64,000 nt of DNA from assembly GCA_000002445.1 (NCBI GenBank), contig CH464491.1, forward strand, positions 4,448,001-4,512,000, given 5' to 3'. Source of the stretch: Trypanosoma brucei (taxonomy: Eukaryota). The notes beneath the pieces were generated by a model. That model saw only the letters and a list, made by a program, of their open reading frames with translations. It did no database searches and was not told where the DNA came from. Every line of letters starts with the position of its first letter. The first letter of the stretch is position 1. The position numbers and the translations under genes were made by a program. Below are positions 31,537-62,862 of this stretch, in pieces.

Positions 31537-34110
31537 CTATGAAGATGATGTCTTCATGAGATGAAGGTAGTACGGGTGATTCTCGTGTGAATCGTTTAAA
31601 AACGCGAATCCCTTTACCGTCTTAAACCGCTTTTCTGCATTCTCTCGGCCTAACCTCTTCGCTAAGTTGACAAACTCCTTAATTGTTTCCACTTCAGCAT
31701 CGGATGGGACTTTAAGCGACTCTAAGGCTTCGCGTCTCGGTCGCTTTAAGGAACAACCACTTTCCTCTCGTTTTCTGAGAGACCGACCACAGTTACACAA
31801 CCCAAGAAAAGAAACCGTTCTCCCCATAAGGGAGCCAAGTTCCATCGCATCCGAAGGTGATGGATTATCACCTATACAGTTGTCAAGCCACATACCTGTG
31901 CGTGCATCACCGGAGCCGCGTGTCATACGTTTAAATAATGGAGACTCTAACAGGGCTAGGGGTATTGACAGAAGTGGCGTCTTTCCAATCTCCTGAGCAC
32001 ACTCCAGAAAGACAGCATTGTTCCACAACGCTGTATGAAGAATAACGTGGCTGGCTATCAAGGGATATGAAACATCCAAAGGGCATTGTAACACTTTCCC
32101 TCCAAAATGTATTTCACATAGCTCATGGTGGGAAGGGTAACAATAAATATTCACGGGCGACTTCTGCGGTCCGCACATATCCGTGCCAGGAGATGCTTGA
32201 TCAAACCAACCTCGACAAGAAGTTGATATCATTCTCGTTGATTGCCTTGAAAGTGTTGTCCTTTTCCCCGTTGTGCAACAAAGAAAAAGTTCAACGCGCG
32301 AAACACTGTCATAATATTTTGGGATAGAAGAAAGTGCCCGAACGAGGGTCTCGTCCCCCATGCTCAGGTTCTCAGTGAAAACAATTTGGTATCTCGAACA
32401 GAATCGGTTTATCGCATCCCTCACCCATGAAGTAAACTTGTGAGAATTGCAAATTAGCTTTTCCGCAACTGCCTTGGGTTGTCTCAGAGCGTGACACCAA
32501 AAAATACACTTTACGTCGAAAGGCGATAACTCAGGAAAACTGCTATCATACGGTAAACGGAAGCGATATGAAAGCGCCCGCCCGATGACACTCAACTGGT
32601 ACGACGGCAACCCGTCACTGTTACGCAACTGCGACAGTAGTCCGAATGAGCACATAGCACTCATGACTTCGTCAAAAAACAAAGACGCGTCCATAGTAGC
32701 AAAGAAACTCTCCGGTATGCGTAAAACTGGGCCTGTATCTTCCTTCCTACTTTCAAACCGAAAGCGTCTAAACAGCCATAACACAACATTCATCGCATCT
32801 TGAAGGCAGTCATTACTAACACGTTCCGTGTCAACGAAGTTATTCTCGCTGCTACAATGGCCCGGATACGGTACATAGATTGTGTGGGGAAGTCGGTGAA
32901 AAAGTGCCCGAATTATGTCCAGATCCTCTCCCCTATTTGACTCACCGAAAACAAGAAACTTTATATCCATATAACCAAAGCAACATTCGTGATGCGGTCT
33001 CAGAAACTCCCTTTCAATTTTCTTCTTGGAACAAAAAACCGTCAACGGTACACCATTGGCACGAGCTGCTAAAAGTTCAGGGAAGTGGTCTAAACTCGCC
33101 GCGATTGACATGGGCGACGAAGTGTAGCTATCGTGTAGGCATTGCTCCAACATGCTAACCAACGAATCCTCTTCAGGGATTATCAGCAATATGCACGAAG
33201 GGTTACTGTTTACACATTCCACTCCGGTGTCACACAATTCTTCGTGGCAGTTTGTAACAATTTCGGTCATTTTTTCGAGCCATGCCTCCTGGTTCGCAGT
33301 CGCAAACGAGTCTGTGAAGCAGTTCTCCATATTATTGGTCGATCCGGTGCTGGTATCCAGCTTGTTAACGACGCAAACTTTAAGTTTGCTTTCAATGAAC
33401 AGATAAATGTCATCTACAGTGGTACTCCGGACACAATCTTTAGAGAATTTTAATATTACCTTCACGTGACTTAGTCTCTCCTGGATACGATCGTTAGGGA
33501 ACGACGCAAAGTGATGGAGAAGCGATGAAATCGCTAACGCCCAAATGGAAAACATAAAACTCCCGTACGGAGCCCCCATGTGAAAATAAATATCAACGTC
33601 TGTCAAAACATACACGACATCATCGTTATCAGTGCCACCCAGAAGAAAAATAAGAAGTGACTGCCACATATGATCGATACCTTTAAGGTCTAGTGTTACG
33701 AAAATGCAGTGGGAGATCCTGCTCGCCTCCTCCGTTCTGTCACGACCCACCTCCTGTGACGATTCATTCAACTCAATAGCTATATAGCAACCGCCAGTGC
33801 AATCGTTACAGGCAATCCGATCCGCAGGAGACGCACAATGTAGGTATGGAATCAAGTCCATTATCCCAATGGGATCACCTGTGCTCGGGTTACCTCTCCT
33901 ATTAATTGTTCCTCTTTCCCCTGAAAGCAAATTGTGGAAACGAGTATTCTTGTCGGTATAATACGCCTCGCTGTCAATCCTTGACATCATCGATTGAGGG
34001 ATGCGGTGTAGCCTCGAAGATGTGAGCGCATCAAAAAAGGCACTGCATTCCAGTGGAAGACAGTAAGGAATATCACCGAAATAACCCGAAGCGACTTCGT
34101 TTAAATTCAT
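31537..34110 (-). CDS. Large conserved hypothetical protein (857 aa). It is the first gene of the minus-strand unit.
   Basis: Uninterrupted 2.6 kb ORF. Upstream of it at 34.1-34.6 kb lie a (GT)n tract and pyrimidine-rich sequence. Confidence 0.5.
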   Translation of the reverse strand: MNLNEVASGYFGDIPYCLPLECSAFFDALTSSRLHRIPQSMMSRIDSEAYYTDKNTRFHNLLSGERGTINRRGNPSTGDPIGIMDLIPYLHCASPADRIACNDCTGGCYIAIELNESSQEVGRDRTEEASRISHCIFVTLDLKGIDHMWQSLLIFLLGGTDNDDVVYVLTDVDIYFHMGAPYGSFMFSIWALAISSLLHHFASFPNDRIQERLSHVKVILKFSKDCVRSTTVDDIYLFIESKLKVCVVNKLDTSTGSTNNMENCFTDSFATANQEAWLEKMTEIVTNCHEELCDTGVECVNSNPSCILLIIPEEDSLVSMLEQCLHDSYTSSPMSIAASLDHFPELLAARANGVPLTVFCSKKKIEREFLRPHHECCFGYMDIKFLVFGESNRGEDLDIIRALFHRLPHTIYVPYPGHCSSENNFVDTERVSNDCLQDAMNVVLWLFRRFRFESRKEDTGPVLRIPESFFATMDASLFFDEVMSAMCSFGLLSQLRNSDGLPSYQLSVIGRALSYRFRLPYDSSFPELSPFDVKCIFWCHALRQPKAVAEKLICNSHKFTSWVRDAINRFCSRYQIVFTENLSMGDETLVRALSSIPKYYDSVSRVELFLCCTTGKRTTLSRQSTRMISTSCRGWFDQASPGTDMCGPQKSPVNIYCYPSHHELCEIHFGGKVLQCPLDVSYPLIASHVILHTALWNNAVFLECAQEIGKTPLLSIPLALLESPLFKRMTRGSGDARTGMWLDNCIGDNPSPSDAMELGSLMGRTVSFLGLCNCGRSLRKREESGCSLKRPRREALESLKVPSDAEVETIKEFVNLAKRLGRENAEKRFKTVKGFAFLNDSHENHPYYLHLMKTSSS

Positions 34111-34546
34111 CTACCGCCAGTACTGAAATAGTGAAAGGGAGAACTTAAGAACGAAGTTAAAACAAAGATAAAACCACATATGTCACAGATTCATGGGAGA
34201 ATGCAAATTAGGTCACATTAACCTCCGCATATTTTTTTTGTGCTTTGGTTAAACATTGATCCCTCCCCCTATGCAACCACCACACCTCGGTAGATCAGAG
34301 GGACGGCAGAATGTAGAAGCAGACAATTTGGGTGAAATCAAACCACCCTCTAAAAAGTCCTGAAAGACCACCGCAGCCGACCAACACATCAGGTACTTCA
34401 CAACTTTTTCTTTAATTAACACGTTTAATTGTCGTTGTTGTTATTGCTGCTGGCGTCAACACAGCTCCAATAGGTACCTTTGCGGTTAAACATGGTCTAT
34501 GTTTCGCTTTGTTTTTTGCTTTCAACAAAACAAATTCGTTATTAGC

Positions 34547-34572
34547 GTGTGTGTGTGTGTGTGTGTGTGTGT
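34547..34572. promoter_or_regulatory. (GT)13 dinucleotide tract about 440 bp upstream of the first minus-strand gene. GT-rich tracts mark divergent transcription start regions in T. brucei.
   Basis: gtgtgtgtgtgtgtgtgtgtgtgtgt is seen directly. It sits at the edge of a 9.6 kb gene-free strand-switch region. Confidence 0.3.
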
Positions 34573-35847
34573 ATTTGTTTTCATATGGTCGGTCCCTGTT
34601 GATAAGGCTACATCGTTAAGCAGGGGAACAATGCTGCAAGCAGCACTTTACATGTACGAAAACGTTCCAACGCTTACACAGATACATACAAATAAAGAAA
34701 AAAGAAACCATCACAGAGGAATAACCCAACAGCATGTCACGCCCCAAAGCACAGGCACCCCGTCCCTGCCTTTTGATAAGTGAAAATGAACAAAGTTAAG
34801 AACGAGTATGGGAAGACGTCGGCACACAACATGGCAAAGCGGGAACCGGCCGTTGCACCGCTCGAACACATATGCGGCAGACGTCCACAATATCACGTCA
34901 TCACCGACGTACAAAACGAGGTCAGCGGCCGTGTGGCAGCCGCCCGCCGCGCAAGGCCGGCACAGACACGGCCAAAAAGTCCGGGCGGACGCAAGCACCC
35001 ACCTGCGAAAACCAAAGAGTCGGAAGGACACGCTCCCTCGCTCTTTCTTCCCCCCTCCCCCTTCGGTTCGACAGCGGCCCTCCGCTGGCAGCCGCGCGCC
35101 TCCGGACCACGGACGGCTTCTCCCGTAGAAAACTGTGGAATCTCACATCCCACCCCCACGTTAAAGCAAATTCCTTCTCTGTTGTGCGCACAGATCACAC
35201 ACACACCTTCCACATTTTCCTCGGCCGAAAATGCTGGCCGGGATTTCTGAGGGCCCTTGACCCACAGCGGCGGCACACTCGGCCAAGAAGTGCAAAGGAA
35301 GGGAGATGCAACGCGCAATAAATCGCTCTTTTCCCCCACACTCGTGCGGCACCACGCCTGCCTACCGCTTGCGTCGACGCGCCAGTCGCCGAACCATTGC
35401 GGCCATCTGGGATATGCGCAGGTGGTGGTGAGTCGGGCACTGGCATCGATGTCGAAGGGTTGGGGTGGCGTAGTCGGCGCGTTCAAGCTGATCTGGAGGA
35501 GCAACCTTGTACCTACAGACGTCTTCGGTGAGAAAGAGCGGCTAGTCGCTGTGGGGGACCCGTCGCCTCTACGCGAGGAAGTTTGGAATCCGGCACCTGG
35601 CCACTCCTTGCCGCCTCGTACCCGATATGGGGAAAATTGGCTGTTATGCTCTGCCCGCGGAACCAGCCGGTACGGGTTGTGTGGGTCTTCGGAACCTCGG
35701 GCAGTGTGAAGCTTGATTCGGATGCGCCCAGAAGCCCATGGAAACAGTACAGATCCGAACCTAGGCCTAGTCGCCGATTTCTTTTACGGAAGCCAGAGTA
35801 TTGTGGGAGGTCTTTTTCATTTCCGTTCGTTTCGAAGGCAAGCATTT

Positions 35848-35862
35848 GGGGGGGGGGGGGGG
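35848..35862. repeat. G15 homopolymer inside a ~1.1 kb GC-rich island (34.8-35.9 kb). All six frames are open there, with no coherent coding signal.
   Basis: gggggggggggggggg at 35848-35862. Overlapping track ORFs occur on both strands at 34780-35940. Confidence 0.6.
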
Positions 35863-38513
35863 AAGAGATATCAGTTTTTTCCCCCATCACCGATGCAGTG
35901 CGCTGAATATCTTTGAGTTGGTTTTTAACGTTGACCTTCATTTCTGAGGTTCAAGAGCGGTAGCGACCTGGGACTCTTAGTAGATTTCTGTGTTACGTTC
36001 CATTTCCGGTACCGGTTCTCCCGGTACGTGAAGCCGGCTGGGGGATTATGTATTTTAGATGCAACAAGATTCGGAACCCTATATATTTTTTCTAAAATTA
36101 ATCATTCATGGGGAGAGATTGCTGCATTTTCTCCCTTCTTTAATTGGGTGAGAACACATAAAAAGTCATCAGGTCGTGCGACATTTTTTAACAAGTTATG
36201 TCTGACCGGTCACTACAAAGCAAGGTGGAGACTTGTGGCTCTTTCGAGCATACCCACGGCTACGCATTGGTAATGAGGGGTGAATACTAGCAAAGAGATT
36301 AGACATAAACCGCAGGGGAGTTCACCGTTAAGATTGTGCCGGCATGAATGTAACGCGTAGGACGCCACGCCGCTGTACGGACGATGCACGTGACTGTTAG
36401 GGGCTTTGAAAGAGATGTTTGCATCCTGAAACAGATTTCACGGCGAAAGAAAAAGAACTTCTTTTGTTAACATGCAAATTTACTTCGACACACTTGCTTC
36501 TGTGGTTAGTCGAAAGTGTGTGCTCTCAGGATTTAAGCAACACACATCATGTCACTGGTTGCTGCAATGTGGTCATAGCATTTGCATTTGCGACAAACGT
36601 ACTGAACAAAGAAATGCGCAGTGGTAGCGAAGAATTTACTTTTTGTCCATACCATGCTCAACTGTGCGTTCCGAAGTTTTTATACTTTCGTCATTACGCG
36701 ACGATGTGTCTCCATCATATCTAACGTCTCCCCCCTTTACACACTTGTGACAAGGAGGAAGAGCCGGCCAAGCCCCCAGCATGCGCACAAGGAAACCAAC
36801 TACTACTAAACAACGCATCGTGGACAAGCATGACAACAGTTCTCCGGACGAGGTGAGAAATATGGAAAGATTAAATTTATGAGTCGTGACTTATACACAG
36901 ACCTCGATAGTCGCAATGTCATTGTTTACTATTGTTGCATCCAATTTAGTAACATCACCTTTCTGTGGTTTATAGGCCGAGTGCTCTAGGCATAACAGAG
37001 GAGAACTTTATGTCCCTTAGAACACATTGTGGCCTCAGCTGACTTTCACTATTTAAAAACCTTCACTGCAGGAGGCATCTGTGTTTGCCGCGCGGATCGG
37101 CACTTCGCTGTGTCAACCCTCTTGATCACCGGAGCTTGGCACCGATTTCCCCATTGACCGGAAGCAACCTCCTGGATCTTCATTAGAAAGTAAGATATGG
37201 GTTGGCTGTCCCCAACATACGTTATGGGGGTGGGTCTCTGAAAGATTCGGAGTGCCACGCGGTGCCGCCCGAACATTCGTAAATGCAGATTTTACCACGA
37301 CTTCCGAACCAACTTCTCATCGCCCCTTTATTTGTATTCCCCTCTAGACAAGGAGTGGGTTCTTCAAAGGAATCGTATTGCGATTGATTCAGTCCCATTG
37401 CAACGTTGCGGGGCAGTTGCGTGAGAGGTCCTTCTCAGACCGCATGTCCCTGCCCACACAACGTTTGCTGGAAGAAATGTTTGTGAGGTACCCTAGGGGA
37501 ACATAGCCACCCAACTACTACTGCCCACACGCACAAACTCTATGTACAGTGCCGCCGCCGTGCTGGATACTCTTTAATCCATATACTGGAAGACTTTTTT
37601 TTTTTTAATGGTAGGGTTGTTATGCGCATGCGCCACTCTCACCGTAGATTGGTGCAGTACTTGGTCAGCGAGCTGATGGTGCGGTTAAAGTCCTTGACGT
37701 CATTTTTATCTGTTTAATCAACTTCCGGTAACATACCGTAATTTTTGAAGTACTTCTCTCTTGTGTTTGGTGGAAAATGCACTGTAGCTGGTGTCTGATG
37801 TAGGCACAGTCATTTCCGTAATACGCAGTGAGAACACACTTTTTACGAGAGGTGGTTGAAACCGACACGAGTTACCAACATAGTGCCATCAAACGGTCCT
37901 TCCTTTCGTGTTAATGTCAGTACAAATGCGAACTCCATCGCTACCAACGAGGGAACAAACAACACATAGATAACCCTTCGAACCGTGCCCGAGGTGACGC
38001 TCTGCTTATATTTTGGACCACAACATAAAGGCGGATGTGATGCCGCTGTGGCTTATGACGAGGTAAGCGATCAGGTCGCGTAGTGTTGTCAACGCTTCGT
38101 GTATCCTACAAAGCGACGTAACATAGCGCCCGAATCGTCACCACCATCAGTGGGAAACAAAGCAGCTGTTGGAAAAGTATAAGTCATTCTGGAGGTGTTG
38201 TGAACTCCCGTTGAAACCGAGTCAGGAACCATGAGTGGGAATGGACGCGAAAAGCAAAATTTTATGCACATTTTAGCCGAGCGTGGTCGTAAAACTATAT
38301 CACCTGGAATCGGAGATTCCACTGTCATAAAGGTGGATGTTGTCCAGTACATGTTGTTGAAACCTCGTGAACACTCGTCTTTGGTATTGTTGGGCCTTGT
38401 TGTAGAAGCAAGACAGCTGGGTCTATGACAGCCGGTTGTCTCAAGGCAATTTGAGCGGTTGAACACTGAAAGTCTCTGATGGTAGACTGTCTAACTCGAC
38501 TTCACTCACGGGA

Positions 38514-38953
38514 ATGCTTCGACTGAAGAAGCTTCAAATCAGGGGCAACCTCGACAACAGCAACGGCGCTGGGGAAATATTTCGTATTGAAATGCTGAAA
38601 GAGATGGTGCCGACGTATAAAGAGGTGGGAATAATTGGAGAGGTGCGCCTCTCCCCGAACCCCACGATTCACAACTTGGAACAGACATCAGCAAATGACG
38701 ACTTCATAAAGTAACTTTCCGTATGGAAGAAACTATATGAAAGTTGACACTATCTGTGTCCCTAAAACTGGATAATGTCGAACAGCTGTCAAAGATTACA
38801 ACACTAAAGGGGTTGAGCCTTTCATGGTGCACTAATATTATACATGGGTGGGAAAGCAATGATAAACTTCCACAGCTCCGAGTTCTTTATTTGGAAGGGG
38901 GCGGCAAATATGCTGGGGGTGCAACCTATGAGAGGTATCAGCAACATGTTTAA
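38514..38953 (+). pseudogene. Degenerate leucine-rich repeat protein (LRRP/ESAG8-like) gene fragment.
   Basis: Two adjacent short ORFs encode LRR-like text: LKKLQIRGNLDN, LSKITTLKGLSLSWCTNIIHGWESNDKLPQLRVLYLEG. This is the L..L..LxLS.C..I pattern of trypanosome LRRP/ESAG8. They are broken by stops. Confidence 0.3.
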
Positions 38954-41920
38954 ATGTTACAGTGAGGGTAAGTGGGGCATACACAAAACTGACCGCGCGG
39001 AATTTGCCTTCCTGTGCTGTTATTATTTTTCCATTATCCCTCTTAACATGGTATGCGATCTCCTGCACCACGGAAGGAAACAACATATGCTACTGGGGTA
39101 AATGCCGACGCCTCAGAGGAGTATATCTTCTGCAGAGCTCAGCACAGGATCTGCAGACCCCCACGGCAGCGAAGGAGGCTGGCCGTCACACAGCAGCAGC
39201 CGTCTGCTCCTAAACGTTGTGGTAGGGCACGGAAGATTCATAAGACTAGCCACTGTTTGACTGACAAGAGCTTGAATGCGACGAGAAATGCTCCCGAGGT
39301 GCGCACGTCGCTGTGAGAAAAGTGATGCCAAAAGATTATTGCAACTCGCTGGTGATGGCACCAGCCCGATGCCTCAATTGTTTTACTGGAGTTTGTTTGG
39401 CAACGGGTGGCACTGGGAAAGAGCCACTGAATGCGTCTTTATGACACACAGACACGTTGCTGACGAGAAGGAAGCGGAAGCACTACCGAGTTTTCGTTTG
39501 GTAACACTTTGGATTAGTACATGATTCCAGTTGGCATAAGCGCTGGACCTCCAGAGGCGTGTTGGGGCCATGGTCATGACTAAGCGCACTGAGGGACAAA
39601 GCGTAGCAATGGTAGTAGGTCGGGAACAAAACGTCGATTGAGACTCCGTTAAGGATTGGTTAGTTGATCGGGACAGGAGGACAAGCAATGACGAACACCA
39701 CTGTTTTGCTTGTTGGTACAGAGAAACGCGACAACTAGCACAATATTCCAGGTTGGACTGCAGAACAAATTGGAAATTAGCAAAAAAAAAATGGCCGAGT
39801 GGCTGAATCAAATTACAAAGAGTGGCAGCCCAACTGCGTCGCAGAAAGGAGTAACGATGAACGGGAGGCAGAATGTTGTAATACAAAAGCAAGAACAGAA
39901 CGGGAAGCAGGCAATTAAAGCGCATCCGGGTCCAACAGCAAAGATCGTAGAGCCATGTCAATGAGGGTGCTAGAAGCCGAGAAAGACGTGCTGAAAAGGG
40001 GTGTTTCGGACAACCACGACCGTCTTCAAGAGAAATTTGAAGTGTGTGTTATCCGTCAGCATGTAATGAGGGGGGGCTGTTTCGCGATTTCCCGATCACA
40101 CGAGAGGAGTTGAATTTACGTGATGTTTCTGACCAGTCGTAACCGCGTCTTTGTGATCGCTGGTTTCCACGGCCTCTTTCAACTGATTTTTTTATTGTGT
40201 AGCCCACCGCAGTTTAATGGATTTTTTGTTGGAATCCATTGCACGTGCTATGGTGCGCTATGTCGTGGCTTGTGCTTTGTTATGTTTAGTTGGCGTTGTT
40301 GTTGTTGTTGTTCTTGTTCATAGGCTTCTTTCATGGCATGCAGTGACCTCGCACATTTGGTCTCAGATTTCATCCGTAGTAGTTCATCCTTTCGTTTCGA
40401 TAACCGAGTATTCCTTTGTTGTTGTTTTTTTTTTGAACGCTTTTACTTCTCATTTACTGTGTATTGCTGATCCAGCTCCCGCATGTCACTACACAGCTGC
40501 TCCGTAGCACCCCTCAGCTTTGACTTATACGCACGAACAACCCTTCCCTGTTGTCCTGCTGTTACAGTCACTGGGCATACAGAACGAAACAGCTTCTTAA
40601 CTCCACGCAAAATATTTGTTAGCTGTAAGTGCCCTCTGTCAAAGGGGACACAGACACAGTAATAACAGGCACTTCTTCGTTCGCTGCATAACCGGTTATG
40701 CGATGTCGTTGCGTTCCTGTTTGACGCTGCAAGAACGATTCCCTGTGGGGTTTTCCGATTGGTCACCTCATTAACGGTAACAGCGCGTGTGTCATGGACC
40801 GCAGTACCTGGACGTATTCGGAAAGGTCGTGGTAACGTCCTTGGCGCCCCACTTCATTTTTTACCGCTTTTCTTATGCATATCATCGCTTTCGGTGAATC
40901 GCGAACTGTTAGTGTACTTCTTGGAGATCGGTTAAGACCCATAGCTGTCCAGCAGGTCGTTTTGCTGCGTTCGGTGCCGAGATTTGCTTGGCAGGGATCA
41001 TTTTTCCAAAATGCAATACATAGGCTCACACACAGGTCCCGGTGATCGGCCTCTACAACCAATAACCTGCGACTGCTGAACTTCCTTGGAAAGTCTTCCG
41101 TATGCACCGTTAGCATCTCATATTTGCTTTTACTTTCGTAAGCGCTGAAAACAGAGCGATTTTCATTGGTGGTCTGCTCTGTAGCGCTTGCCTGCCAGGG
41201 AAGTTGAGATGACAAAATTAAATAGAGGTCCACATAGGTTTGGTATCCTTCACGCGATTCTTCAAGGATGTGTTGTTCCTTTCGTCTGCGGAGTGACGAC
41301 GGGAAAAGCGGAACTTGCTGCTGGAGAAACGTTGCAGTACGACACGTAAACTATTGTTTTTGCGAAATTCATAAATATGATTTCCACAAGGAGACAGGGA
41401 GTGCATCGTGTTGTGCTATGCAAAGGCGACAGGGCAATTATAAAAAACGTGCTGTCGCAACCAGTCAGCTTCCATCAATTTAACAGCGATGCAATAAGTG
41501 GATCTTGACTACCCCAGAGATGCGTATTGCGGTAAGGGGAACGTCACCCCCCCCCCCCGTACATCATTTTAACCGGTAGGGACGAGTAGTCTCATACCTT
41601 ACCTACAGTTGGAGGAGCTTTAAGCCGAAAATTTTCGACTTTTTTGAGGGTAGAAGCAAGCTCCCCAGGTTTCCCTCAAAAGCAGAAAGAGCATCCATCC
41701 TCGCTTTGATACACCGCATTGGGTGTTTTCCGTTTCTCGCTCCTTGGGCATACAGAGTGGCGGTTCCCCCGATGCTATCCTTTCCCCCCCCCCCCGCAAA
41801 AAAAAAAAAAAAATCTTTTGGGTTGCCCTTTCGGGCCCGCTCCGCCGCGGTAAACCTTTTACCGGCCGAAAACCCCGGGCAAAATGTTTTCCCTGACTGG
41901 GTGGCGGACCCCCGATCTTN

Positions 41921-42019
41921 NNNNNNNNNNNNNNNNNNNNNNNNNNNNNNNNNNNNNNNNNNNNNNNNNNNNNNNNNNNNNNNNNNNNNNNNNNNNNNNN
42001 NNNNNNNNNNNNNNNNNNN
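41921..42019. other. Scaffold gap (N run). The flanking sequence at 41540-41920 has long homopolymers (C14, C12, A16) typical of low-quality read ends.
   Basis: Ns are seen directly. Track ORFs contain X runs. Confidence 0.95.
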
Positions 42020-42812
42020 TGACAATTGCGGCAGGACGATGAGCAGAAGTAACAACGCGACTGGAGCTCTCAATATCACGGGAAGTACGTCCATGGCGAC
42101 ACGACACACAGCTCCTCCCGTCGGAAGGGAATGTTCCCCGCCACTCGGTGCGAGTGAGGCATTGCGGTCGCTCAAGTGAAGCATATTCATCGCAGTGTCT
42201 TTGATAGTCTACGTGTAAAAGTGGTTGTCACACTGGAACAAATGAAAGGGAGGGGTTGGGCAAGAGTTGTTAGGTGAAACTGGGAACCACGTAACGCCAA
42301 GAACGTGATGCCCATATCGAGGGGAAAAAATATAAACGGTTGCACGCAACAAGCCATATTAAGATTTAAGGACGCCAACACACGCATCGTTCCATCAGAG
42401 CCAAACACACCAGTAACGTAGGCGCGAAACTGCGCTTGTTGTGTCAGAGGCGGCGGTCACAATGCACAAGACCACCCCACAACAGTACAGAACTCCCAAG
42501 GTATGCGCCGCGCGCGGTGGAGTGGACCATCGATAGGTAAAACAACAATGTACCATTAAGAGGTCAACGGTTCCTCCAATCACGGCGGATGTGCCGCCCC
42601 TTTGCCACTAATTGATTGGAGGAACGGGGGCGTATTTTTCGCGACACACGACCACTGCAAAGCGGCTGGAGACTTGACACAATCCGAAGGGCGCGTCAGC
42701 TGCGTCGCAACTGTGTGCACGCTTCTATACCCCTGGCATCGGCGACAAAGTATCCGCAGCCACAATAGCCACCAAAGAACCGCCTCTCCTTCCAGCTTAG
42801 ACATAGTAGGTG
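42020..42812. repeat. Left arm of an inverted duplication. It is the reverse complement of 43116-43908, i.e. the adenylate cyclase 5' flank plus its first ~170 nt of coding sequence.
   Basis: Track ORFs 42395-42583(-) and 43345-43533(+) are identical, as are 42187-42408(-) and 43520-43741(+). ORF 41603-42190(-) begins MNMLHLSDRNASLAPSGGEH, identical to the cyclase N-terminus. Nucleotide reverse-complement identity was checked by eye across the arm ends. Confidence 0.85.
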
Positions 42813-43115
42813 TCCGCCACACACACACACACAATCTCTTTTGTGTTTGCTCTTTTCGTGCCCCGCTCCGCGCGGGTAAACCACTTTCAGCGGCCGGAGA
42901 ACTCCCGTGCGAAAATGTTTTCTCACCTGACTCGGTGTGTGCTGACACTCCGAGTCACTTCGCAGGTAAGGGAGTCATACGCCCTCTGGAACGGGTGAAC
43001 CAGTTCCAGTAGGATAGCACTATCCTTGATCAATGGCACCGCGTAAATGCTGCATCACTACCGAAAGCAAGTAAGAAGGCATATGACCCCGTTTCGCGCC
43101 GGTTCGTCCACCCGA

Positions 43116-43908
43116 CACCTACTATGTCTAAGCTGGAAGGAGAGGCGGTTCTTTGGTGGCTATTGTGGCTGCGGATACTTTGTCGCCGATGCCAGGGGTA
43201 TAGAAGCGTGCACACAGTTGCGACGCAGCTGACGCGCCCTTCGGATTGTGTCAAGTCTCCAGCCGCTTTGCAGTGGTCGTGTGTCGCGAAAAATACGCCC
43301 CCGTTCCTCCAATCAATTAGTGGCAAAGGGGCGGCACATCCGCCGTGATTGGAGGAACCGTTGACCTCTTAATGGTACATTGTTGTTTTACCTATCGATG
43401 GTCCACTCCACCGCGCGCGGCGCATACCTTGGGAGTTCTGTACTGTTGTGGGGTGGTCTTGTGCATTGTGACCGCCGCCTCTGACACAACAAGCGCAGTT
43501 TCGCGCCTACGTTACTGGTGTGTTTGGCTCTGATGGAACGATGCGTGTGTTGGCGTCCTTAAATCTTAATATGGCTTGTTGCGTGCAACCGTTTATATTT
43601 TTTCCCCTCGATATGGGCATCACGTTCTTGGCGTTACGTGGTTCCCAGTTTCACCTAACAACTCTTGCCCAACCCCTCCCTTTCATTTGTTCCAGTGTGA
43701 CAACCACTTTTACACGTAGACTATCAAAGACACTGCGATGAATATGCTTCACTTGAGCGACCGCAATGCCTCACTCGCACCGAGTGGCGGGGAACATTCC
43801 CTTCCGACGGGAGGAGCTGTGTGTCGTGTCGCCATGGACGTACTTCCCGTGATATTGAGAGCTCCAGTCGCGTTGTTACTTCTGCTCATCGTCCTGCCGC
43901 AATTGTCA
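43116..43908. repeat. Right arm of the inverted duplication. The spacer between arms is 42813-43115, ~303 bp.
   Basis: As for the left arm. Arm boundaries: gacatagtaggtg (42800-42812) and cacctactatgtc (43116-43128). Confidence 0.85.
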
Positions 43909-46900
43909 GTGGGCGCCGAGGCTAATGCGACAGTCAAGGTTCTCTCCGCCGCGTGGAACTCGTACATGCCGCAGGAGTATGTGACCGCGATCAATGCTGG
44001 CTTCAGTGCCTCACTAGAGTCACGACAATGGACTGTGGCTGGAAGCGTGAAAGTTGAGGTAGTTTATCCAGAGCGGTACGAAACACTACCCGAAGATTTC
44101 ATTAAAGAGCAGTTGGAATTGGAAACGGACCAGAATAAGATTGTTATAGTGTATGGACCCCTCGGTGACAAAAGCGTAATATACTCGATCCCGTATCTGG
44201 TGAATCACAGCGTAGTGGCCTTAGGGTTGATGACCGGCTCCGGGGAGGTGCGGCGGTGGAATCCGTACCTTTACTTTCTGCGTGCCGACCCCGCTGCTGA
44301 AACATTGGCTCTCATTCGGTATGCTCTATGCCAGTTGCGCGTGCTGCGCTTGGGTTTTATGTACCTTCAGGGTGTTCATTATGGCGACGAGGAGTATGCA
44401 TTGACAGTGAACGTGATGTCTCAGATGGGTTATGAGCTGCATGGTGTGTTCACCGTGATGAGTCCAGACGGTGAGCCTGCTCCTGATGATGAGTTCAAAG
44501 AGGCGTTCGAGCGTTTCGCCGCCGCCCTTCCTCAGGCCATCATTGTCTTTGGTGCGCCAGAAAAGGATACTGCGAAGTTCTTGATGATGATGGTAGCGGA
44601 GGAGCGCGTTGCTCGGTCTTATATTCTTGGTCCATCATCCGTCCAGGTGTCACTTGCAGAAATGTGGCGACTCGCTCTGGAAGCTGCAGGGGCCTCATTC
44701 GCGCCCGGGCAGCTACTTTTCACAGGCACCAATCCGCTTGCGAAGGACAGCCAGTACATAGCAATCAAGCGTTTTCAAGGAGTTATGAGTGAATACCTGA
44801 AAGCTCACGTCGGCGAAACCAACATCACTGAAACAGATTATTTCCTGACCCACGATCCTGAGGGAGAGTTGATGGTGTATGGGTGGATTGCTGGGGAGGT
44901 ATTGACCCAGGCACTTAGTAGTCTTGAATGGCTCAAGGACCGCGCTACGTTTGTCAGGTCGCTATACAGCCAACGGCGCTACGTCATCAATGACATTGTG
45001 ATCGGTGATTATGGCGGTACGTGTGAGGGGGAGGCGGCCAAGCATGGCGCCACCTGTGAGTGTAACCAAGGCAGTAAGGCGGTGTATGTGAAAGAGGTGT
45101 TGGAGGATGGCCGGACGACGACGATGGCGAGTGGATTCACGGTGGTGAAAGCTTCGCAGTGCTATGCTGAATCTTCGGAGCTTCACGGGCCACTGAATGG
45201 ACTCGCCGTTTTCATGGAAGACGACGACACCGCGTCGAAGGCAGCTGCGCTGTGGCACAAGGGGGCCTCCCATCTTGTCGGCAAGGGTGATTTGGGACAC
45301 TCGGACAGGTTCTTTCTGCACGCATTTAATACTACCATAGCTGAGGCAGCGAACGATCTTCGGCATGAACAAGGTGAAAGAATCGTAACCGCTGTGTTTG
45401 GCCCCGTGACCGAGGCGATGTTGGACACGCCGAATATAACCTTTATCGATCCCCTGGAACTCAAACCACGGCTGAATAAGTTCAGAAGGAATGTGATTCA
45501 TCTCTCGCCCACCCTGGAACAACAACTTTACGTTCTTTCATCGTACCTCGCAGGCGACGGGGTCGGCACTGTTGATGCCGTGATCTGCAGCAACGAAGCG
45601 GATGGGATTGCAGATTTTCTGCGGAGGTCACTAACTGAGTTCGGTGTCTCGCTACGTTCCGCTGTCATACGTGAGGATGGGGAAGGTGTTGGTAAATACC
45701 TTCCGATGAGTGGGATCGTGTTTGTCATTGGTCTTTCCGTTCCAGATGTGAGGGAAATCGCGAGGAAACTTGAGGAACGTAACGATTTGCGTGTGATTGT
45801 TCTCTTCGCGGAGTTTTCGTTACTGTATGATCTGTTTACTTCGACCCTCAACAACACCGCAGGCGCCGCGCGTCTTGTGTTTGCCACCAGCTTGCCACAT
45901 TGGGGTGATACTGAAACCTCATCGAAGACTACTCAACTGTTCCATGATGTCGAAAAAGACTCACGATTGTGGACACCCCTATCACTTCTGGCATTCGCAA
46001 CCGGTCGATTGATGCGGGCAATACTTCTTCGTGTAGAAGAAATGAGTCCAGAAACGTTGGTAAATTTCTTCTATGCCGATTCTTCCATCATCTCTGATGA
46101 CATGCGGTACGGTGTCTTCGACGACACAAAGTGCGACGGCGCAGAGAACATTTCGGAGGGTGATTGTGCCTCGAACTATGGCGCAACGCAGATATCCGTG
46201 TGGTCTATGGCCCGTGCTCTCAACGCCTCCATTCTTCCACTTACAAATCCCATGACACCGTCAATGAGCTTCAGAGACCCTAGCGAAGGAAAACTCTCCG
46301 GGGCACCGCTGGTGGGCGTCATCATCGGTGCTACCTTTGCTTTGTTTCTTGTGGTGGCTCTGGGCGTGGTTCCATACTTTGTCCTGCGCAACACCCGTGA
46401 TAACAACAGCGCGCCAAAGGAACCCACAGAGCCTGTGACAATTGTTTTCACAGATATTGAAAGCAGCACGGCACAGTGGGCTGCCCACCCCGATGTCATG
46501 GCTGATGCTGTCGCCGCACACCACAAGTTGATCCGCGCGCTGATCTCCCAGTACGAGTGTTACGAGGTGAAGACCGTTGGGGACTCGTTCATGATCGCGA
46601 GCCGAAGTGCGTTTATGGCGGTGCAACTTGTGCGGGATCTGCAGAGGGCGTTCCTTCGCCACAACTGGGGCGCGTCCGTGTTTGACGAGTATTATTGCAG
46701 ACTTGAGCAGGACCGTGCGTTAGAAAGTGAGGGATACGTGCCGCCAACCGCACGCCTGGACCCCGACGTGTACCGAAAGTTGTGGAATGGCCTCCGAGTG
46801 CGAGTTGGTGTGCACACCGGATTGTGTGACATTCGCCACGATGAGGTGACAAAGGGTTACGACTACTATGGTCATACGTCGAACATGGCTGCCCGCACAG

Positions 46901-47499
46901 AGAGCGCTGCGAATGGTGGACAGATATTGCTGACACGTGCAACATACCTTTCGCTAAGCACAGCGGAGCGTGAGCAACTTGACGTCACTGCGCTGGGCGC
47001 CGTCCCACTGCGTGGCGTTCCCGATCCGGTGGAAATGTACCAAGTTGATGCTGTGGTCGGTCGGTCCTTCGCTGCACTGCGCCTCGACAGGGAGGTCGAT
47101 CTGGTCGCAGATAGTGGGGTAACAAACCTATCCACCAGCGACTGCGCGTCCTTATGTGAGTTGGGTCAGTCAGCACAGACGATAGTGGCAGTCATGCGCG
47201 CACTTTTCGGCACTTTTACAGCATCACAGCGGGAAAAGTTGTTAGTGCCCTTCTGCGAGCGTTGGCGTGTGACGCTACCACCCAAAACGAAGTCCGTGTG
47301 GGATGATAACTACTGTCAGGAGGTTGTGCGGCGTATAGCAGCAAAAGTGGGACACGTCGTTGACTTCACGGCTTACAACATCGCTGAGCCCCCCCTCACA
47401 ACGTCAAGCAGCTCGTCCGTCATATTCATTTCCGACGCCGCCGTGGGTTTGTGCGCAGTGGGAGAACGAAATGTCTCAACCCCAAAGGAGGAAAACTGA
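43738..47499 (+). CDS. GRESAG4: Receptor-type adenylate cyclase (trypanosome ESAG4/GRESAG4 family), 1253 aa.
   Basis: Signal peptide (LLLLLIVLPQLSVGA) and a large extracellular domain. Single TM segment LVGVIIGATFALFLVVALGVVPYFVL. Class III cyclase catalytic core VTIVFTDIESSTAQWA...YEVKTVGDSFMIAS...YDYYGHTSNMAARTES. Confidence 0.9.
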   Translation: MNMLHLSDRNASLAPSGGEHSLPTGGAVCRVAMDVLPVILRAPVALLLLLIVLPQLSVGAEANATVKVLSAAWNSYMPQEYVTAINAGFSASLESRQWTVAGSVKVEVVYPERYETLPEDFIKEQLELETDQNKIVIVYGPLGDKSVIYSIPYLVNHSVVALGLMTGSGEVRRWNPYLYFLRADPAAETLALIRYALCQLRVLRLGFMYLQGVHYGDEEYALTVNVMSQMGYELHGVFTVMSPDGEPAPDDEFKEAFERFAAALPQAIIVFGAPEKDTAKFLMMMVAEERVARSYILGPSSVQVSLAEMWRLALEAAGASFAPGQLLFTGTNPLAKDSQYIAIKRFQGVMSEYLKAHVGETNITETDYFLTHDPEGELMVYGWIAGEVLTQALSSLEWLKDRATFVRSLYSQRRYVINDIVIGDYGGTCEGEAAKHGATCECNQGSKAVYVKEVLEDGRTTTMASGFTVVKASQCYAESSELHGPLNGLAVFMEDDDTASKAAALWHKGASHLVGKGDLGHSDRFFLHAFNTTIAEAANDLRHEQGERIVTAVFGPVTEAMLDTPNITFIDPLELKPRLNKFRRNVIHLSPTLEQQLYVLSSYLAGDGVGTVDAVICSNEADGIADFLRRSLTEFGVSLRSAVIREDGEGVGKYLPMSGIVFVIGLSVPDVREIARKLEERNDLRVIVLFAEFSLLYDLFTSTLNNTAGAARLVFATSLPHWGDTETSSKTTQLFHDVEKDSRLWTPLSLLAFATGRLMRAILLRVEEMSPETLVNFFYADSSIISDDMRYGVFDDTKCDGAENISEGDCASNYGATQISVWSMARALNASILPLTNPMTPSMSFRDPSEGKLSGAPLVGVIIGATFALFLVVALGVVPYFVLRNTRDNNSAPKEPTEPVTIVFTDIESSTAQWAAHPDVMADAVAAHHKLIRALISQYECYEVKTVGDSFMIASRSAFMAVQLVRDLQRAFLRHNWGASVFDEYYCRLEQDRALESEGYVPPTARLDPDVYRKLWNGLRVRVGVHTGLCDIRHDEVTKGYDYYGHTSNMAARTESAANGGQILLTRATYLSLSTAEREQLDVTALGAVPLRGVPDPVEMYQVDAVVGRSFAALRLDREVDLVADSGVTNLSTSDCASLCELGQSAQTIVAVMRALFGTFTASQREKLLVPFCERWRVTLPPKTKSVWDDNYCQEVVRRIAAKVGHVVDFTAYNIAEPPLTTSSSSSVIFISDAAVGLCAVGERNVSTPKEEN

Positions 47500-52104: not shown

Positions 52105-52276
52105 AACGTGTCGCGATGGATGACTTGGCTTCCTATTTCGTTGAAGAACGCAGCAAAGTGCGATAAGTGGTATCAATTGCAGAATCATTTCATTGCCCAA
52201 TCTTTGAACGCAAACGGCGCATGGGAGAAGCTCTCTCGAGCCATCCCCGTGCATGCCACATTTCTCAGTGTCGAAT
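52105..52276 (+). rRNA. 5.8S rRNA.
   Basis: aacgtgtcgcgatggatgacttggcttcctatttcgttgaagaacgcagcaaagtgcgataagtggtatcaattgcagaatcatttcattgcccaatctttgaacgcaaacggcgcatgggagaag... This is a near-exact trypanosome 5.8S as recalled. Confidence 0.85.
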
Positions 52277-52870
52277 ATAAAAACATAACACACACCTATT
52301 TTGTGTTGTTCAACGCACGCACAAAATCCCGCCACCTCTTCTCCTCGTATGGTTCATATTCATGTTTGTGAGTGTGCACATATACGATATCTTTCAACTT
52401 TTTCTCCTCGCAAAATGGAGTATGTCGCGCATATACGTGTGTGTAGTGAGTGATATGGAAGAGAAATGGGAAAGGCATATATATATATATACGTATATAC
52501 ATAATATATATGTGTGTGGATTTGTGTGTTGAGCACATATAAGGAAAAAGGTCGTGTGTATATGCAGAGAGTCCGTGGCGGTTTAGACGTATGTATATAT
52601 ATCTATAATATATGCATATGTGTGTGTTCCGCTGTGGAGATTTTATATCATACGGAGAGTGTTCATATATATGTTTGTAGGCATGTATTTTGGCGCCCCG
52701 TATAGAGATTAAAAAAGAAGAGAAAAAGTATGCAAAAGAGGCGGCGGATAGTGTGTATGTGTGTATCACAGCAAGGAACTATATTTTGCAGCTTGAGTAT
52801 ATGCATATATGTACATTATGTGCTTGTGCTTCTTTCGTGTACGCTTCACTTTTTTATATTGCATTTTTCA
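52277..52870 (+). other. ITS2-like spacer between 5.8S and LSU. It is AT-rich with (TA)n and (TG)n microsatellites.
   Basis: Position between 5.8S and the LSU 5' end. tatatatatatata and tgtgtgtg tracts at 52470-52660. Confidence 0.6.
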
Positions 52871-54375: not shown

Positions 54376-54452
54376 CCCTGGCGATACCGGCCACCTCAAC
54401 GTGGTGCCAGGGTCCAGTACCCCGTATCATCGGGGGAAGCCAAGAGCCAGCA
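54376..54452 (+). promoter_or_regulatory. Pr77-like 5' signature of trypanosomatid retroposons. It is reported for L1Tc/ingi/RIME as an internal promoter-like element.
   Basis: The sequence begins CCCTGGCG and matches the remembered 77-79 nt signature. Confidence 0.6.
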
Positions 54453-54599
54453 GCTTTCCTTTCATGGGGAACACTGCTGTGCTCCGGCTACGGCATCATA
54501 CAGCACAGGGATCAGCAGCGTCTTGCTGGGACACCGTCTTTCATTTGTCGGTCCCTGGTCACGTGCCAGTGTGCCATCAGCAGTATCATCCGCACTAAG

Positions 54600-61925: not shown

Positions 61926-61933
61926 CACTCTCC

Positions 61934-62015
<82 letters not shown>

Positions 62016-62102
62016 TAATTATTTTTATTAATTAATTATTATTATTAATTATTATTATTATTATTATTATTATATTATTATTATTATTATTATTATTTAT
62101 TA
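61926..62102. repeat. (ATT)n trinucleotide array degenerating into ttaattaatt, abutting gap 2.
   Basis: Seen directly. The track translates it as poly-L. Confidence 0.95.
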
Positions 62103-62202
62103 NNNNNNNNNNNNNNNNNNNNNNNNNNNNNNNNNNNNNNNNNNNNNNNNNNNNNNNNNNNNNNNNNNNNNNNNNNNNNNNNNNNNNNNNNNNNNNNNNN
62201 NN
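62103..62202. other. Scaffold gap (100 N) inside the satellite array.
   Basis: Ns are seen directly. Confidence 0.95.

Positions 62203-62819: not shown

Positions 62820-62862
<43 letters not shown>

What the first reader, a model, noticed from the sequence alone, without database searches (positions are those of the whole stretch)
34111..43737. 9.6 kb gene-free divergent strand-switch region carrying GT tract, GC island, G15 run and gene relics
All 14 upstream genes are on the minus strand and the next gene (adenylate cyclase) is on the plus strand, so this interval looks like a divergent transcription start region. It holds a (GT)13 tract at 34547, a ~1.1 kb island at >60 percent GC in which all six frames are open (34.8-35.9 kb), a G15 run, and several stop-riddled fragments including an LRRP/ESAG8-like relic at 38.5-39.0 kb. 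In T. brucei such regions carry H2A.Z/H4K10ac-marked Pol II start sites with GT-rich promoter elements. The GC island has no coding logic and could instead hold a structured ncRNA.
Basis: partly seen in the sequence, partly recalled or inferred. Interest (0 to 1): 0.5.

Follow-up and report, generated by a model that had tools for sequence, protein, structure and literature searches.

The report
Known trypanosome divergent transcription start region
This gene-free stretch is the last place on Trypanosoma brucei chromosome 11 where two gene clusters are read outwards in opposite directions; it is an already catalogued start region with the usual G-run and GT-tract hallmarks, and about 1 kb of it is a reference-assembly artefact.

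Summary
The window is T. brucei TREU927 chromosome 11, 4,448,001-4,512,000. Two genes fix this offset exactly. The interval lies between Tb11.01.8780 (857 aa, minus strand) and adenylate cyclase Tb11.01.8820 at the core/subtelomere boundary.

Confirmed:
- (GT)13 and G15.
- An island of 59-62% GC, the GC-richest 500 bp of the 64 kb.

Not confirmed:
- Gene relics. The LRR hint never beats Pfam E=0.03.
- Any Rfam, tRNA or fold signal.

- A 100-N gap, a perfect 795-nt inverted copy of the cyclase 5' end, and a degraded duplicate. This 1,025-bp block is absent from DAL972 and from an independent Logan contig, so the true spacer is about 8.6 kb.
- Two minus-strand G12 runs and a (TG)n-G-run composite.

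Kolev et al. 2010 (5'-triphosphate RNA-seq) list Tb11.01.8780 as first ORF of a 'Divergent' Pol II unit. Wedel et al. 2017 show that G10 and GT-type 10-mers are the most coding-strand-biased words at the 5' edge of start regions.

The island switches G+T skew at about 35.25 kb. A GC-rich, GT-skewed island lies upstream of the orthologue in T. theileri, T. melophagium and T. rangeli, without sequence similarity. That fits a dispersed bidirectional promoter, not an RNA gene.

Verdict: already known kind and locus; low interest.

The parts
34111..34143 (-). 5' UTR of Tb11.01.8780. The mapped spliced-leader acceptor site is at 34143 (chr11:4,482,143), with the AG on the minus strand at 34144-34145.
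   Evidence: Kolev 2010 Table S3 coordinates; sequence
34146..34540 (-). Polypyrimidine and T/G-rich stretch on the minus (coding) strand. It holds six of the start-region-biased 10-mers of Wedel et al.
   Evidence: 10-mer scan
34547..34572 (+). (GT)13 microsatellite, variable in length between strains: 9 units in DAL972 and 14 in T. equiperdum.
34751..35300 (-). Left half of the GC island. GC is 0.59 and G+T skew -0.19 on the plus strand, so it is GT-rich on the minus strand, which is the coding strand of the leftward unit. It holds GGTGTGTGTG (minus strand) at 35198.
35301..35950 (+). Right half of the GC island. GC is 0.57 and G+T skew +0.11 on the plus strand, so it is GT-rich in the rightward direction.
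35848..35862 (+). G15 run. It is G13 in DAL972 and (TG)7G13 in T. equiperdum, whose contig ends in this run.
35951..41546 (.). 5.6 kb of ordinary-composition DNA with no recognisable gene, domain, repeat or RNA family. It includes the weak LRR-like ORFs at 38463-38950(+).
   Evidence: No novel transcript is listed here in Kolev Table S7.
41547..41558 (-). G12 on the minus strand. It is interrupted in DAL972 and in one Logan contig. Two Logan contigs start at this run: G12 in one, G20 in the other.
41784..41794 (-). G-run half of a composite minus-strand element. In the true sequence it joins directly to 42815-42833 and reads (TG)8-9 GGC G9-12 on the minus strand.
41795..41919 (.). Error-ridden contig end, a degraded duplicate of 42815-42940.
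41920..42019 (.). Assembly gap of 100 N.
42020..42814 (-). Perfect 795-nt inverted copy of 43114-43908: 624 nt of cyclase upstream sequence plus the first 171 nt of the CDS. It is absent from DAL972 and from Logan contig L008 and is most likely a fold-back assembly artefact.
42815..43737 (+). Genuine 923 bp upstream of the cyclase ATG. It starts with GCC(AC)8, the (TG)n part of the minus-strand composite element.
43738..47499 (+). Receptor-type adenylate cyclase. It is Tb11.01.8820 by its position at the subtelomeric boundary, and Tb927.11.17040/ACP1 by gene numbering. Shown for context.

Best explanation
The interval is the last divergent strand-switch region of the chromosome 11 core of T. 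brucei TREU927 (chr11:4,482,111-4,491,737, at the core/subtelomere boundary). It acts as a dispersed, intrinsically bidirectional RNA polymerase II transcription start region.

Shown:
- The minus-strand unit Tb11.01.8780 to Tb11.01.7880 is catalogued as starting here.
- Its first spliced-leader acceptor site is 33 nt upstream of the ATG.
- The DNA carries the strand-biased words typical of the 5' edges of T. brucei start regions.
- The island is not coding, and no RNA family or fold signal was found in it.

Inferred:
- The GC island at 34.75-35.95 kb is the core of the start region. Its left half is G+T-rich on the minus strand and feeds the leftward unit. Its right half, ending in G15, is G+T-rich on the plus strand and launches rightward transcription that eventually reaches the adenylate cyclase.
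- By analogy with Wedel et al. 2017, such GT/G-rich DNA would favour H2A.Z-containing, easily opened chromatin over a broad region rather than a point promoter.
- The second set of elements next to the cyclase (G12 and the (TG)n-G-run, both on the minus strand) adds leftward initiation. The 5.6 kb in between is then probably transcribed at a low level on both strands as unstable non-coding RNA.

About 1 kb of the interval (41795-42819) is a reference-assembly artefact and not part of the biology.
For: - Identity of the locus. The ORF coordinates of Tb11.01.8780 (4482110..4479537) and Tb11.01.8680 (start 4450405) equal the window coordinates plus 4,448,000, and the AG acceptor falls where predicted. 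The 857-aa protein is identical to TREU927 EAN80646.
- Experimental listing as a 'Divergent' Pol II unit start. The paper states that 5'-triphosphate reads were enriched at every divergent unit and on both strands.
- G10, GTGTGTGTGG, CGGGGGGGGG and GTGTGTGGCG are top coding-strand-biased 10-mers in the first fifth of 199 start regions. Three of the six G/C runs of 10 or more in the 64-kb window lie in this interval.
- 10-mer hits on the two sides of the island: 7 minus-strand against 4 plus-strand to the left of 35.25 kb, and 8 plus-strand against 0 minus-strand from 35.25 to 36.2 kb. G+T skew flips from -0.19 to +0.11.
- Position is conserved without sequence conservation.
  - T. theileri has (TG)6, G10 and a 59-64% GC, GT-skewed island 0.4-1.9 kb upstream on the coding strand.
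  - T. melophagium has a similar island.
  - T. rangeli has one too.
- The orthologue is the first called gene of its cluster in the five species where the upstream side could be read. Four draft contigs break within 1.8 kb upstream of it.
- The island is non-coding. The two ORFs annotated in DAL972 are frame-shifted relative to TREU927 at a C-run and at the G-run. SNP density is 1.4-1.6% against mostly 0.2-0.8% in the neighbouring 500-bp bins (one bin, 36111-36610, reaches 3.6%).
- Start regions are about 10 kb wide and cover the first genes of a unit, so an 8.6-kb spacer is ordinary.
Against: - No plus-strand unit beginning with the cyclase is listed in Kolev's Table S14.
- The strongest G-run signatures are 'crossed'. 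G15 and (GT)13, which point right, lie next to the leftward gene. The two G12 runs and the (TG)n-G-run, which point left, lie next to the cyclase. That is the opposite of the textbook layout and does not fit a single island-centred core.
- G-runs are not sufficient for a start. C11 at 16388 lies inside the same catalogued unit without a called internal start.
- The skew magnitudes in the island are within about 1.5-2 sd of window-wide variation.
- No chromatin or nascent-RNA data could be overlaid here.
Confidence: 0.8

Rival explanations
1. Interleaved (crossed) start regions. The leftward start region begins at the minus-strand (TG)n-G-run and G12 elements at 41.5-41.8 kb. The rightward one begins at G15 (35.85 kb). 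Two start regions of about 10 kb would then overlap, and roughly 6 kb (35.9-41.5 kb) would be transcribed convergently on both strands. This could give double-stranded RNA or transcriptional interference upstream of the cyclase.
For: - Sense-strand G-runs mark the 5'-most fifth of start regions.
- Here each run lies about 7-8 kb upstream of the gene it points to. That fits the published width of about 10 kb, 'encompassing the first few genes'.
- In T. theileri the sense-strand (TG)n and G10 also lie upstream of the island.
Against: - In T. theileri the runs are only 1.3-1.9 kb from the gene, not 7.5 kb.
- The island itself shows a divergent skew switch.
- No siRNA locus at this position appears among the loci named in the main text of Tschudi 2012.
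- No stable novel transcript is listed here.
Confidence: 0.25
2. The GC island and/or the 5.6-kb middle are decayed remnants of genes or of a retroelement. The open frames would be fossils, and the promoter-like features incidental.
For: - Stop codons are mildly depleted in the island, and one minus-strand frame is open for 296 codons.
- In T. melophagium an element with reverse transcriptase and RNase H lies directly upstream of the orthologue.
- There is a weak LRR_4 hint at 38744-38953.
Against: - No Pfam domain is found in any tested ORF.
- There is no tblastx match to the ingi element in the same window or to the T. melophagium element.
- The 195-aa ORF has no homologue in 1.8 billion representatives.
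- The open frames are in all six phases, which points to composition rather than one coding frame.
- Frame-shifting indels occur between strains.
- The 296-codon frame has no ATG until its last residues.
Confidence: 0.08
3. The GC island encodes a structured non-coding RNA.
For: One 150-nt window at 34550-34699(+) has fold z = -3.4.
Against: - No Rfam family matches, even at E<=1, apart from two chance-level hits outside the island.
- There are no tRNAs.
- The mean fold z-score over 72 windows is 0.0.
- The positionally equivalent islands of other trypanosomes share no sequence.
- SNP density is raised within T. brucei.
- No novel transcript is listed here by Kolev 2010.
Confidence: 0.03
4. 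The 795-nt inverted duplication is real in strain TREU927. It would be a hairpin-forming palindrome upstream of the cyclase, present on at least one haplotype.
For: It is present in the reference sequence with 100% arm identity. T. brucei does hold genuine near-perfect long inverted repeats that make siRNAs.
Against: - One arm ends exactly at an N100 gap.
- The contig on the other side of the gap reads, with errors, straight from the C-run into the 'loop' sequence, as in DAL972.
- DAL972 and an independent Logan contig both lack it.
- It is not among the seven inverted repeats of 422 bp or more found in a genome-wide survey of this same reference.
Confidence: 0.08

Closest known systems
Divergent transcription start regions (dTSRs / divergent strand-switch regions) of T. 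brucei (Siegel 2009; Kolev 2010; Wedel 2017)
   Same: Head-to-head gene clusters; a spacer of several kb; G-runs and GT-rich words biased to the coding strand; listed as a 'Divergent' unit start from 5'-triphosphate RNA-seq; no focused promoter motif.
   Different: The strongest G-runs lie in crossed positions relative to the genes they point to. The rightward 'cluster' is a single adenylate cyclase gene followed by an rDNA fragment, an ingi element and VSG-array repeats. No plus-strand unit is listed in Kolev's table.
Mammalian CpG-island (dispersed, bidirectional) promoters
   Same: A GC-rich island about 1 kb long; broad and bidirectional initiation (the analogy is drawn by Kolev et al.); conservation of composition and position rather than of sequence.
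   Different: CpG observed/expected is about 1.0 both inside and outside the island, so there is no CpG-specific signal. The start region drives a polycistron and is marked by H2A.Z over about 10 kb.
Leishmania major chromosome 1 strand-switch region
   Same: Bidirectional Pol II initiation in a short region with C/G tracts between divergent clusters. This rests on my own knowledge of Martinez-Calvillo et al. 2003, a paper cited.
   Different: The Leishmania region is under 1 kb. Here the spacer is 8.6 kb, with two separate groups of tracts.
T. cruzi GC-rich strand-switch centromere (Obado 2005, reference seen)
   Same: A GC-rich segment at a strand switch, with a retroelement nearby in one relative (T. 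melophagium).
   Different: The island here is 1.2 kb, not 16 kb, and has no retroelement content. There is no AT-rich satellite array in the interval. There is no evidence of centromere function.

Membership tests
T. brucei divergent Pol II transcription start region | Flanking gene clusters point away from each other | tested here: met
   Minus-strand ORFs run up to 34110 and the plus-strand cyclase starts at 43738. Syntenic annotation in DAL972 agrees.
T. brucei divergent Pol II transcription start region | Primary (5'-triphosphate) transcripts arise here | tested here: met
   Taken from the literature, not recomputed. Kolev 2010 Table S14 lists Tb11.01.8780 to Tb11.01.7880, minus strand, 'Divergent'. 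No plus-strand partner unit is listed.
T. brucei divergent Pol II transcription start region | Enrichment of H2A.Z, H2B.V, H4K10ac and BDF3 over about 10 kb | not testable with these tools
   No ChIP tracks are available. Kolev states that all sites marked by these histones showed 5'-triphosphate enrichment.
T. brucei divergent Pol II transcription start region | G-run and GT-rich 10-mers biased to the coding strand at the 5' edge | tested here: inconclusive
   The words are present and enriched. The island halves fit the divergent layout, but the longest runs are in crossed positions.
Structured ncRNA gene (Rfam families, tRNA) | Match to a covariance model, or a fold more stable than shuffles, or conservation | tested here: not met
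LRRP / ESAG8 pseudogene | Significant similarity to leucine-rich-repeat proteins over several repeats | tested here: inconclusive
   Pfam LRR_4 gives E=0.03 for one ORF and E=0.3 for the joined ORFs, below the cut-off of 27 bits. No T. brucei LRRP or ESAG8 sequence was available for a direct comparison.
Retroelement relic (ingi/RIME, DIRE, VIPER, SLACS) | Similarity to reverse transcriptase, endonuclease or RNase H, or to an element copy | tested here: not met
   No Pfam hit. No tblastx hit to the ingi element at 54.3-58.5 kb or to the T. melophagium element.
Trypanosome centromere | AT-rich satellite array flanked by degenerate retroelements at a strand switch | tested here: not met
   No tandem array lies in 34.1-43.7 kb and there is no retroelement.
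Assembly artefact (fold-back or duplicated contig end) | Perfect identity, abuts a gap, contradicted by the neighbouring contig end, and absent from independent assemblies | tested here: met

The most novel reading that the evidence does not exclude
The crossed layout is real and functional. Sense-strand G-run/(TG)n elements lie 7-8 kb upstream of the genes they point to, so two start regions interleave and about 6 kb of spacer is transcribed convergently. This would set, by interference or double-stranded RNA, the output of the single gene to the right: ACP1/Tb11.01.8820, the closest chromosome-internal relative of ESAG4, at the core/subtelomere boundary. Alongside it, the GC-rich GT-skewed island would be an ancient promoter module kept by position and composition across the genus Trypanosoma.
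Probability: 0.12. Interest if true: 0.55.

Novelty: already known. Interest (0 to 1): 0.2.

Why it matters
Biologically this is a textbook trypanosome start region that has been catalogued since 2010, so little is new.

Two practical points do matter:
- The TREU927 reference holds a 1,025-bp artefact here: a gap, a fold-back copy of the cyclase 5' end and a degraded duplicate. It makes 795 bp of the ACP1 promoter-proximal region and 5' CDS map to two places. Unique-mapping ChIP-seq or RNA-seq will therefore show a false hole exactly where the rightward start would be seen. This may be why no plus-strand unit is listed.
- The same first gene of the cluster carries a GC-rich, GT-skewed island upstream in four trypanosome lineages, with no sequence similarity. 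This small natural data set supports composition-defined (dispersed) Pol II promoters.

Tried and rejected
- Exact look-ups of the two flanking proteins found nothing. The locus was reached through the DAL972 and T. equiperdum orthologues instead.
- Two large word-indexed protein searches used concatenated stop-to-stop ORFs: 4,028 aa from 36.0-41.8 kb and 1,531 aa from the island. Both returned nothing.
  - The second search failed even to return the near-identical ORF products annotated in DAL972.
  - I therefore treat both as uninformative, not as evidence of absence.
It found only self-hits and a spurious match to a tandem-repeat fish protein.
- A first sliding fold scan of the whole interval timed out. 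Only 34.4-36.2 kb was scanned.
- Logan contigs carrying the 156-aa ORF were checked for spliced-leader sequence, to see whether they were transcripts. None was found, and their ends lie at homopolymers.
- Papers on H3.V/siRNA, Cordon-Obras 2022 and Siegel 2009 were either not specific to this locus or not held.
- The supplements of a 2025 histone-tail paper do not mention these genes.
- Centromere, retroelement and rDNA-spacer readings of the island were considered and dropped for lack of any match.
Full report
**Where the window comes from**

- The 857-aa minus-strand gene (31537-34110) is 99% identical to a conserved hypothetical protein of T. b. gambiense DAL972.
- It is 100% identical to the T. 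b. brucei TREU927 protein EAN80646.
- Kolev et al. 2010 (PMC2936537), Table S3, gives Tb11.01.8780 on the minus strand of Tb927_11_01_v4. The ORF is 4482110..4479537 and the transcript 5' end is 4482143.
- The ORF length (2,574 bp) and position equal window 34110..31537 plus 4,448,000.
- The predicted acceptor at window 34143 is preceded on the minus strand by AG at 34144-34145.
- A second gene, Tb11.01.8680 (start 4450405), falls on an ATG-initiated open frame at window 2405.
- The window is therefore TREU927 chr 11, 4,448,001-4,512,000. The finding is chr11:4,482,111-4,491,737.
- TbAIR9 (Tb927.11.17000, old ID Tb11.01.8770) and the EMC6/Rab5ip gene (Tb927.11.17010) lie just to the left.
- The cyclase to the right fits Tb11.01.8820. 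Jackson et al. [quoted passage not shown]
- By gene numbering the cyclase is Tb927.11.17040 = ACP1. This last step is inference.

- The boundaries are correct, and so are (GT)13 at 34547-34572 and G15 at 35848-35862.
- The GC island is real. Windows of 500 bp reach 0.59-0.62 GC between 34.7 and 35.8 kb, the highest values in the 64 kb.
- 'All six frames open' overstates the case. Each frame has 4-13 stops.
- Every frame does keep an open stretch of at least 112 codons, and total stops (44) fall below a first-order Markov expectation of 61 +/- 8.
- The 'gene relics' could not be substantiated.
  - The best signal is Pfam LRR_4 at E=0.03 for 38744-38953. It falls to E=0.3 when the two LRR-like ORFs are joined.
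  - The ORFs of 55 aa or more in 36.0-38.5 and 39.1-41.8 kb, three low-complexity ones left out, gave no Pfam hit.
  - The interval has no tblastx match elsewhere in the window or in four orthologous loci.
  - The longest non-island ORF (195 aa, 40766-41350, minus strand) has only T. brucei self-hits among 1.8 billion representatives, plus one spurious repeat-protein hit.

- The interval holds an N100 gap (41920-42019).
- Immediately to its right lies a 795-nt stretch (42020-42814) that is the perfect reverse complement of 43114-43908. That is 624 nt of cyclase upstream sequence plus the first 57 codons of the cyclase.
- To the left of the gap, 41795-41919 is an error-ridden copy of the sequence at 42815-42940.
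- In DAL972 the sequence runs straight from the C-run at 41784-41794 into GCC(AC)n at 42815. The window has a 1,025-bp insertion (41795-42819) relative to DAL972, whose spacer is 8,600 bp.
- An independent Logan contig (ERR7929164, L008) shows the same direct junction.
- A genome-wide survey of this reference for inverted repeats of 422 bp or more lists seven, and none is here.
- I conclude that this block is a fold-back or duplicated-contig-end artefact of the reference. I leave about 8% for a real strain-specific palindrome.
- A practical consequence, by inference: short reads from the 795 bp around the cyclase start map to two places. This may explain why no plus-strand unit is catalogued.

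**Evidence that this is a start region**

- Kolev et al. built Table S14 from 5'-triphosphate RNA-seq. The last chr 11 entry is Tb11.01.8780 to Tb11.01.7880, minus strand, type 'Divergent'.
- Their text says that enrichment was seen at every divergent unit and at all sites marked by variant and modified histones. It was seen on both strands, and they liken it to CpG promoters.
- No plus-strand partner unit is listed.
- No novel transcript in their uncut Table S7 has coordinates in 4,482-4,492 kb.
- Wedel et al. 2017 report that H2A.Z start regions are about 10 kb wide and cover the first genes, and that initiation is at their 5' ends.
- Their Dataset EV1 shows G10 as by far the most coding-strand-biased 10-mer in the first fifth of 199 start regions (132 against 17). 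It is followed by GTGTGTGTGG, GGTGTGTGTG, CGGGGGGGGG and, lower in the list, GTGTGTGGCG.

**Sequence anatomy against that yardstick**

- On the plus strand, pointing right: (GT)13 at 34547 and TTTG15 at 35845-35862.
- On the minus strand, pointing left:
  - six T/G-rich words at 34159-34525;
  - GGTGTGTGTG at 35198;
  - G12 at 41547-41558;
  - in the true sequence, (TG)8-9 GGC G9-12 at 41784-41794 joined to 42815-42833. L008 reads TTGTGTGTGTGTGTGTGTGGCGGGGGGGGGGG.
- Three of the six G/C runs of 10 or more in the 64-kb window lie in this interval.
- All these tracts vary in length between strains:
  - (GT)9, (GT)13 or (GT)14;
  - G13, G15 or (TG)7G13;
  - C12 or C5AC6.
- The island is asymmetric. 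G+T skew is -0.19 over 34751-35300 and +0.11 over 35301-35950, and GC skew flips at the same place.
- Left of 35.25 kb the start-region words are 7 on the minus strand against 4 on the plus strand. From 35.25 to 36.2 kb they are 8 on the plus strand against 0.
- The island itself therefore has the layout of a bidirectional core.
- The longest runs, however, are crossed. G15 (rightward) lies next to the leftward gene, and the G12 and (TG)n-G-run elements (leftward) lie next to the cyclase.

**Comparative evidence**

The orthologue of the 857-aa gene is the first called gene of its cluster in T. vivax, T. grayi, T. melophagium, T. theileri and T. rangeli. The same genes follow it downstream.

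Four draft contigs end upstream of it:

| Species | Distance of contig end upstream of the gene |
|---|---|
| T. equiperdum | 1.8 kb |
| T. vivax | 1.1 kb |
| T. grayi | 0.13 kb |
| T. rangeli | 0.7 kb |

Where the upstream sequence exists, there is a GC-rich island skewed to G+T on the coding strand:

| Species | Feature on the coding strand upstream of the gene |
|---|---|
| T. theileri | 59-64% GC at -1.0 to -0.4 kb, in a locus averaging 40% GC; preceded by G10 at -1.3 kb and (TG)6G5 at -1.9 kb |
| T. melophagium | Island at -0.9 to -0.4 kb in 33%-GC surroundings; directly upstream lies an RT/RNase H retroelement |
| T. rangeli | The first 360 bp of the contig are the GC-richest part of the locus and are followed by a GT-rich tract |

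None of these islands shares detectable sequence with another beyond T/GT low-complexity matches. Conservation of position and composition without sequence is what a dispersed promoter predicts. It is the opposite of what an RNA gene predicts.

**The island is neither coding nor a known RNA**

- DAL972 annotates two small ORFs in it and T. equiperdum annotates one.
- The DAL972 products change frame relative to TREU927 at the C-run near 35050 and at the G-run.
- SNP density in the island is 1.4-1.6%, against 0.2-0.8% in most flanking bins.
- The 296-codon open frame has no ATG until its last residues.
- Rfam finds nothing at gathering thresholds. At E<=1 it gives only two chance-level hits outside the island.
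- ARAGORN finds no tRNA.
- The mean fold z-score is 0.0 over 72 windows, with a minimum of -3.4 at the (GT)13 flank.

**Conclusion**

- The interval is a catalogued divergent Pol II start region of an ordinary kind (confidence 0.8).
- The detail I favour is that the GC island is the bidirectional core for the leftward unit and for rightward non-coding or cyclase-directed transcription, and that a second group of leftward-pointing elements lies next to the cyclase.
- The main rival (0.25) is that the two start regions of about 10 kb interleave, each beginning at its own sense-strand G-run. That would give convergent transcription over about 6 kb.
- These two readings are not exclusive in every detail. 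Existing 5'-triphosphate and H2A.Z data would separate them once mapped to a corrected locus.
- The relic, retroelement, ncRNA and real-palindrome readings are each below 10%.

**Context to the right of the cyclase**

- A 5.8S and LSU-alpha rRNA fragment without an SSU is cut at 54382 by an ingi-type element carrying endonuclease, reverse transcriptase and RNase H.
- Beyond it lie 70-bp-repeat-like (TAT)n and (GTATTA)n arrays with a second N100 gap.
- This fits the core/subtelomere boundary described in the literature.

Noticed in passing
window 52105-54382 and 54324-58533: A partial rDNA unit (5.8S plus LSU rRNA model positions 24-1445, with no SSU upstream) is cut off at 54382 by a non-LTR retrotransposon. 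The element encodes endonuclease and reverse transcriptase (1,044-aa ORF) and RNase H (355-aa ORF) and is ingi-like.
   Followed up: partly
window 48962-48985 (+): (TG)6 is followed directly by G13, the same composite (TG)n-G-run as on the minus strand at 41.8 kb. It lies 1.5 kb downstream of the cyclase stop codon. G10 also occurs at 50317. This could be another start-region edge or a boundary element.
   Followed up: no
window 61860-63230: On the minus strand there is a sequence that, from my memory of its consensus, matches the T. brucei 70-bp repeat. It is followed by (TAT)n and about 1 kb of (GTATTA)n at 11% GC, with a second N100 gap at 62103-62202. This is typical of the start of a subtelomeric VSG array.
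   Followed up: partly
window 16388-16398: A C11 run (G11 on the minus, coding strand) and a cluster of 17 minus-strand start-region-type 10-mers lie at 16-18 kb, inside the minus-strand cluster. Kolev 2010 lists no internal start there, so such runs are not sufficient for a called start.
   Followed up: partly
L004 (T. melophagium) 1147-8409, minus strand: Long uncalled ORFs (609, 380, 1,022 and 349 aa) at 50-62% GC lie in a region whose genes are about 33% GC. Two of them carry reverse transcriptase and RNase H domains. A retroelement therefore lies directly upstream of the orthologous start region.
   Followed up: partly
L002, L003, L005, L007 (T. equiperdum, T. vivax, T. grayi, T. rangeli): All four draft contigs end 0.13-1.8 kb upstream of the orthologue of the 857-aa gene. 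The T. equiperdum contig ends in the G-run, and the T. vivax contig starts with (TTA)n. This start region breaks short-read assemblies again and again.
   Followed up: yes
window 34778-35250 and 35637-35972; L001 8139-8474 and 8992-9333; L002 623-1087; L006 8981-9469: Automatic annotations of DAL972, T. equiperdum and T. theileri each call small 'genes' inside the GC-rich island, on differing strands and in differing frames. The two DAL972 calls lose their frame in TREU927 and are spurious; the others look the same but were not checked.
   Followed up: yes
window 41603-42190 (-): The artefactual inverted copy creates a false minus-strand ORF that starts with the first 57 codons of the adenylate cyclase and runs through the N gap.
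   Followed up: yes
window 40295-40318 and 40425-40434: A (GTT)8 tract (six bases shorter in DAL972) and a T10 run (four bases longer in DAL972) lie in the strongly T-rich stretch at 40.0-40.5 kb, where G+T skew reaches +0.26, the highest in the interval. I have no explanation for this stretch.
   Followed up: no
(tool behaviour): The word-indexed protein search returned nothing for concatenated ORF queries. It missed even the near-identical DAL972 ORF products that are called as genes on the DAL972 contig. Negative results from that kind of query should not be trusted.
   Followed up: partly
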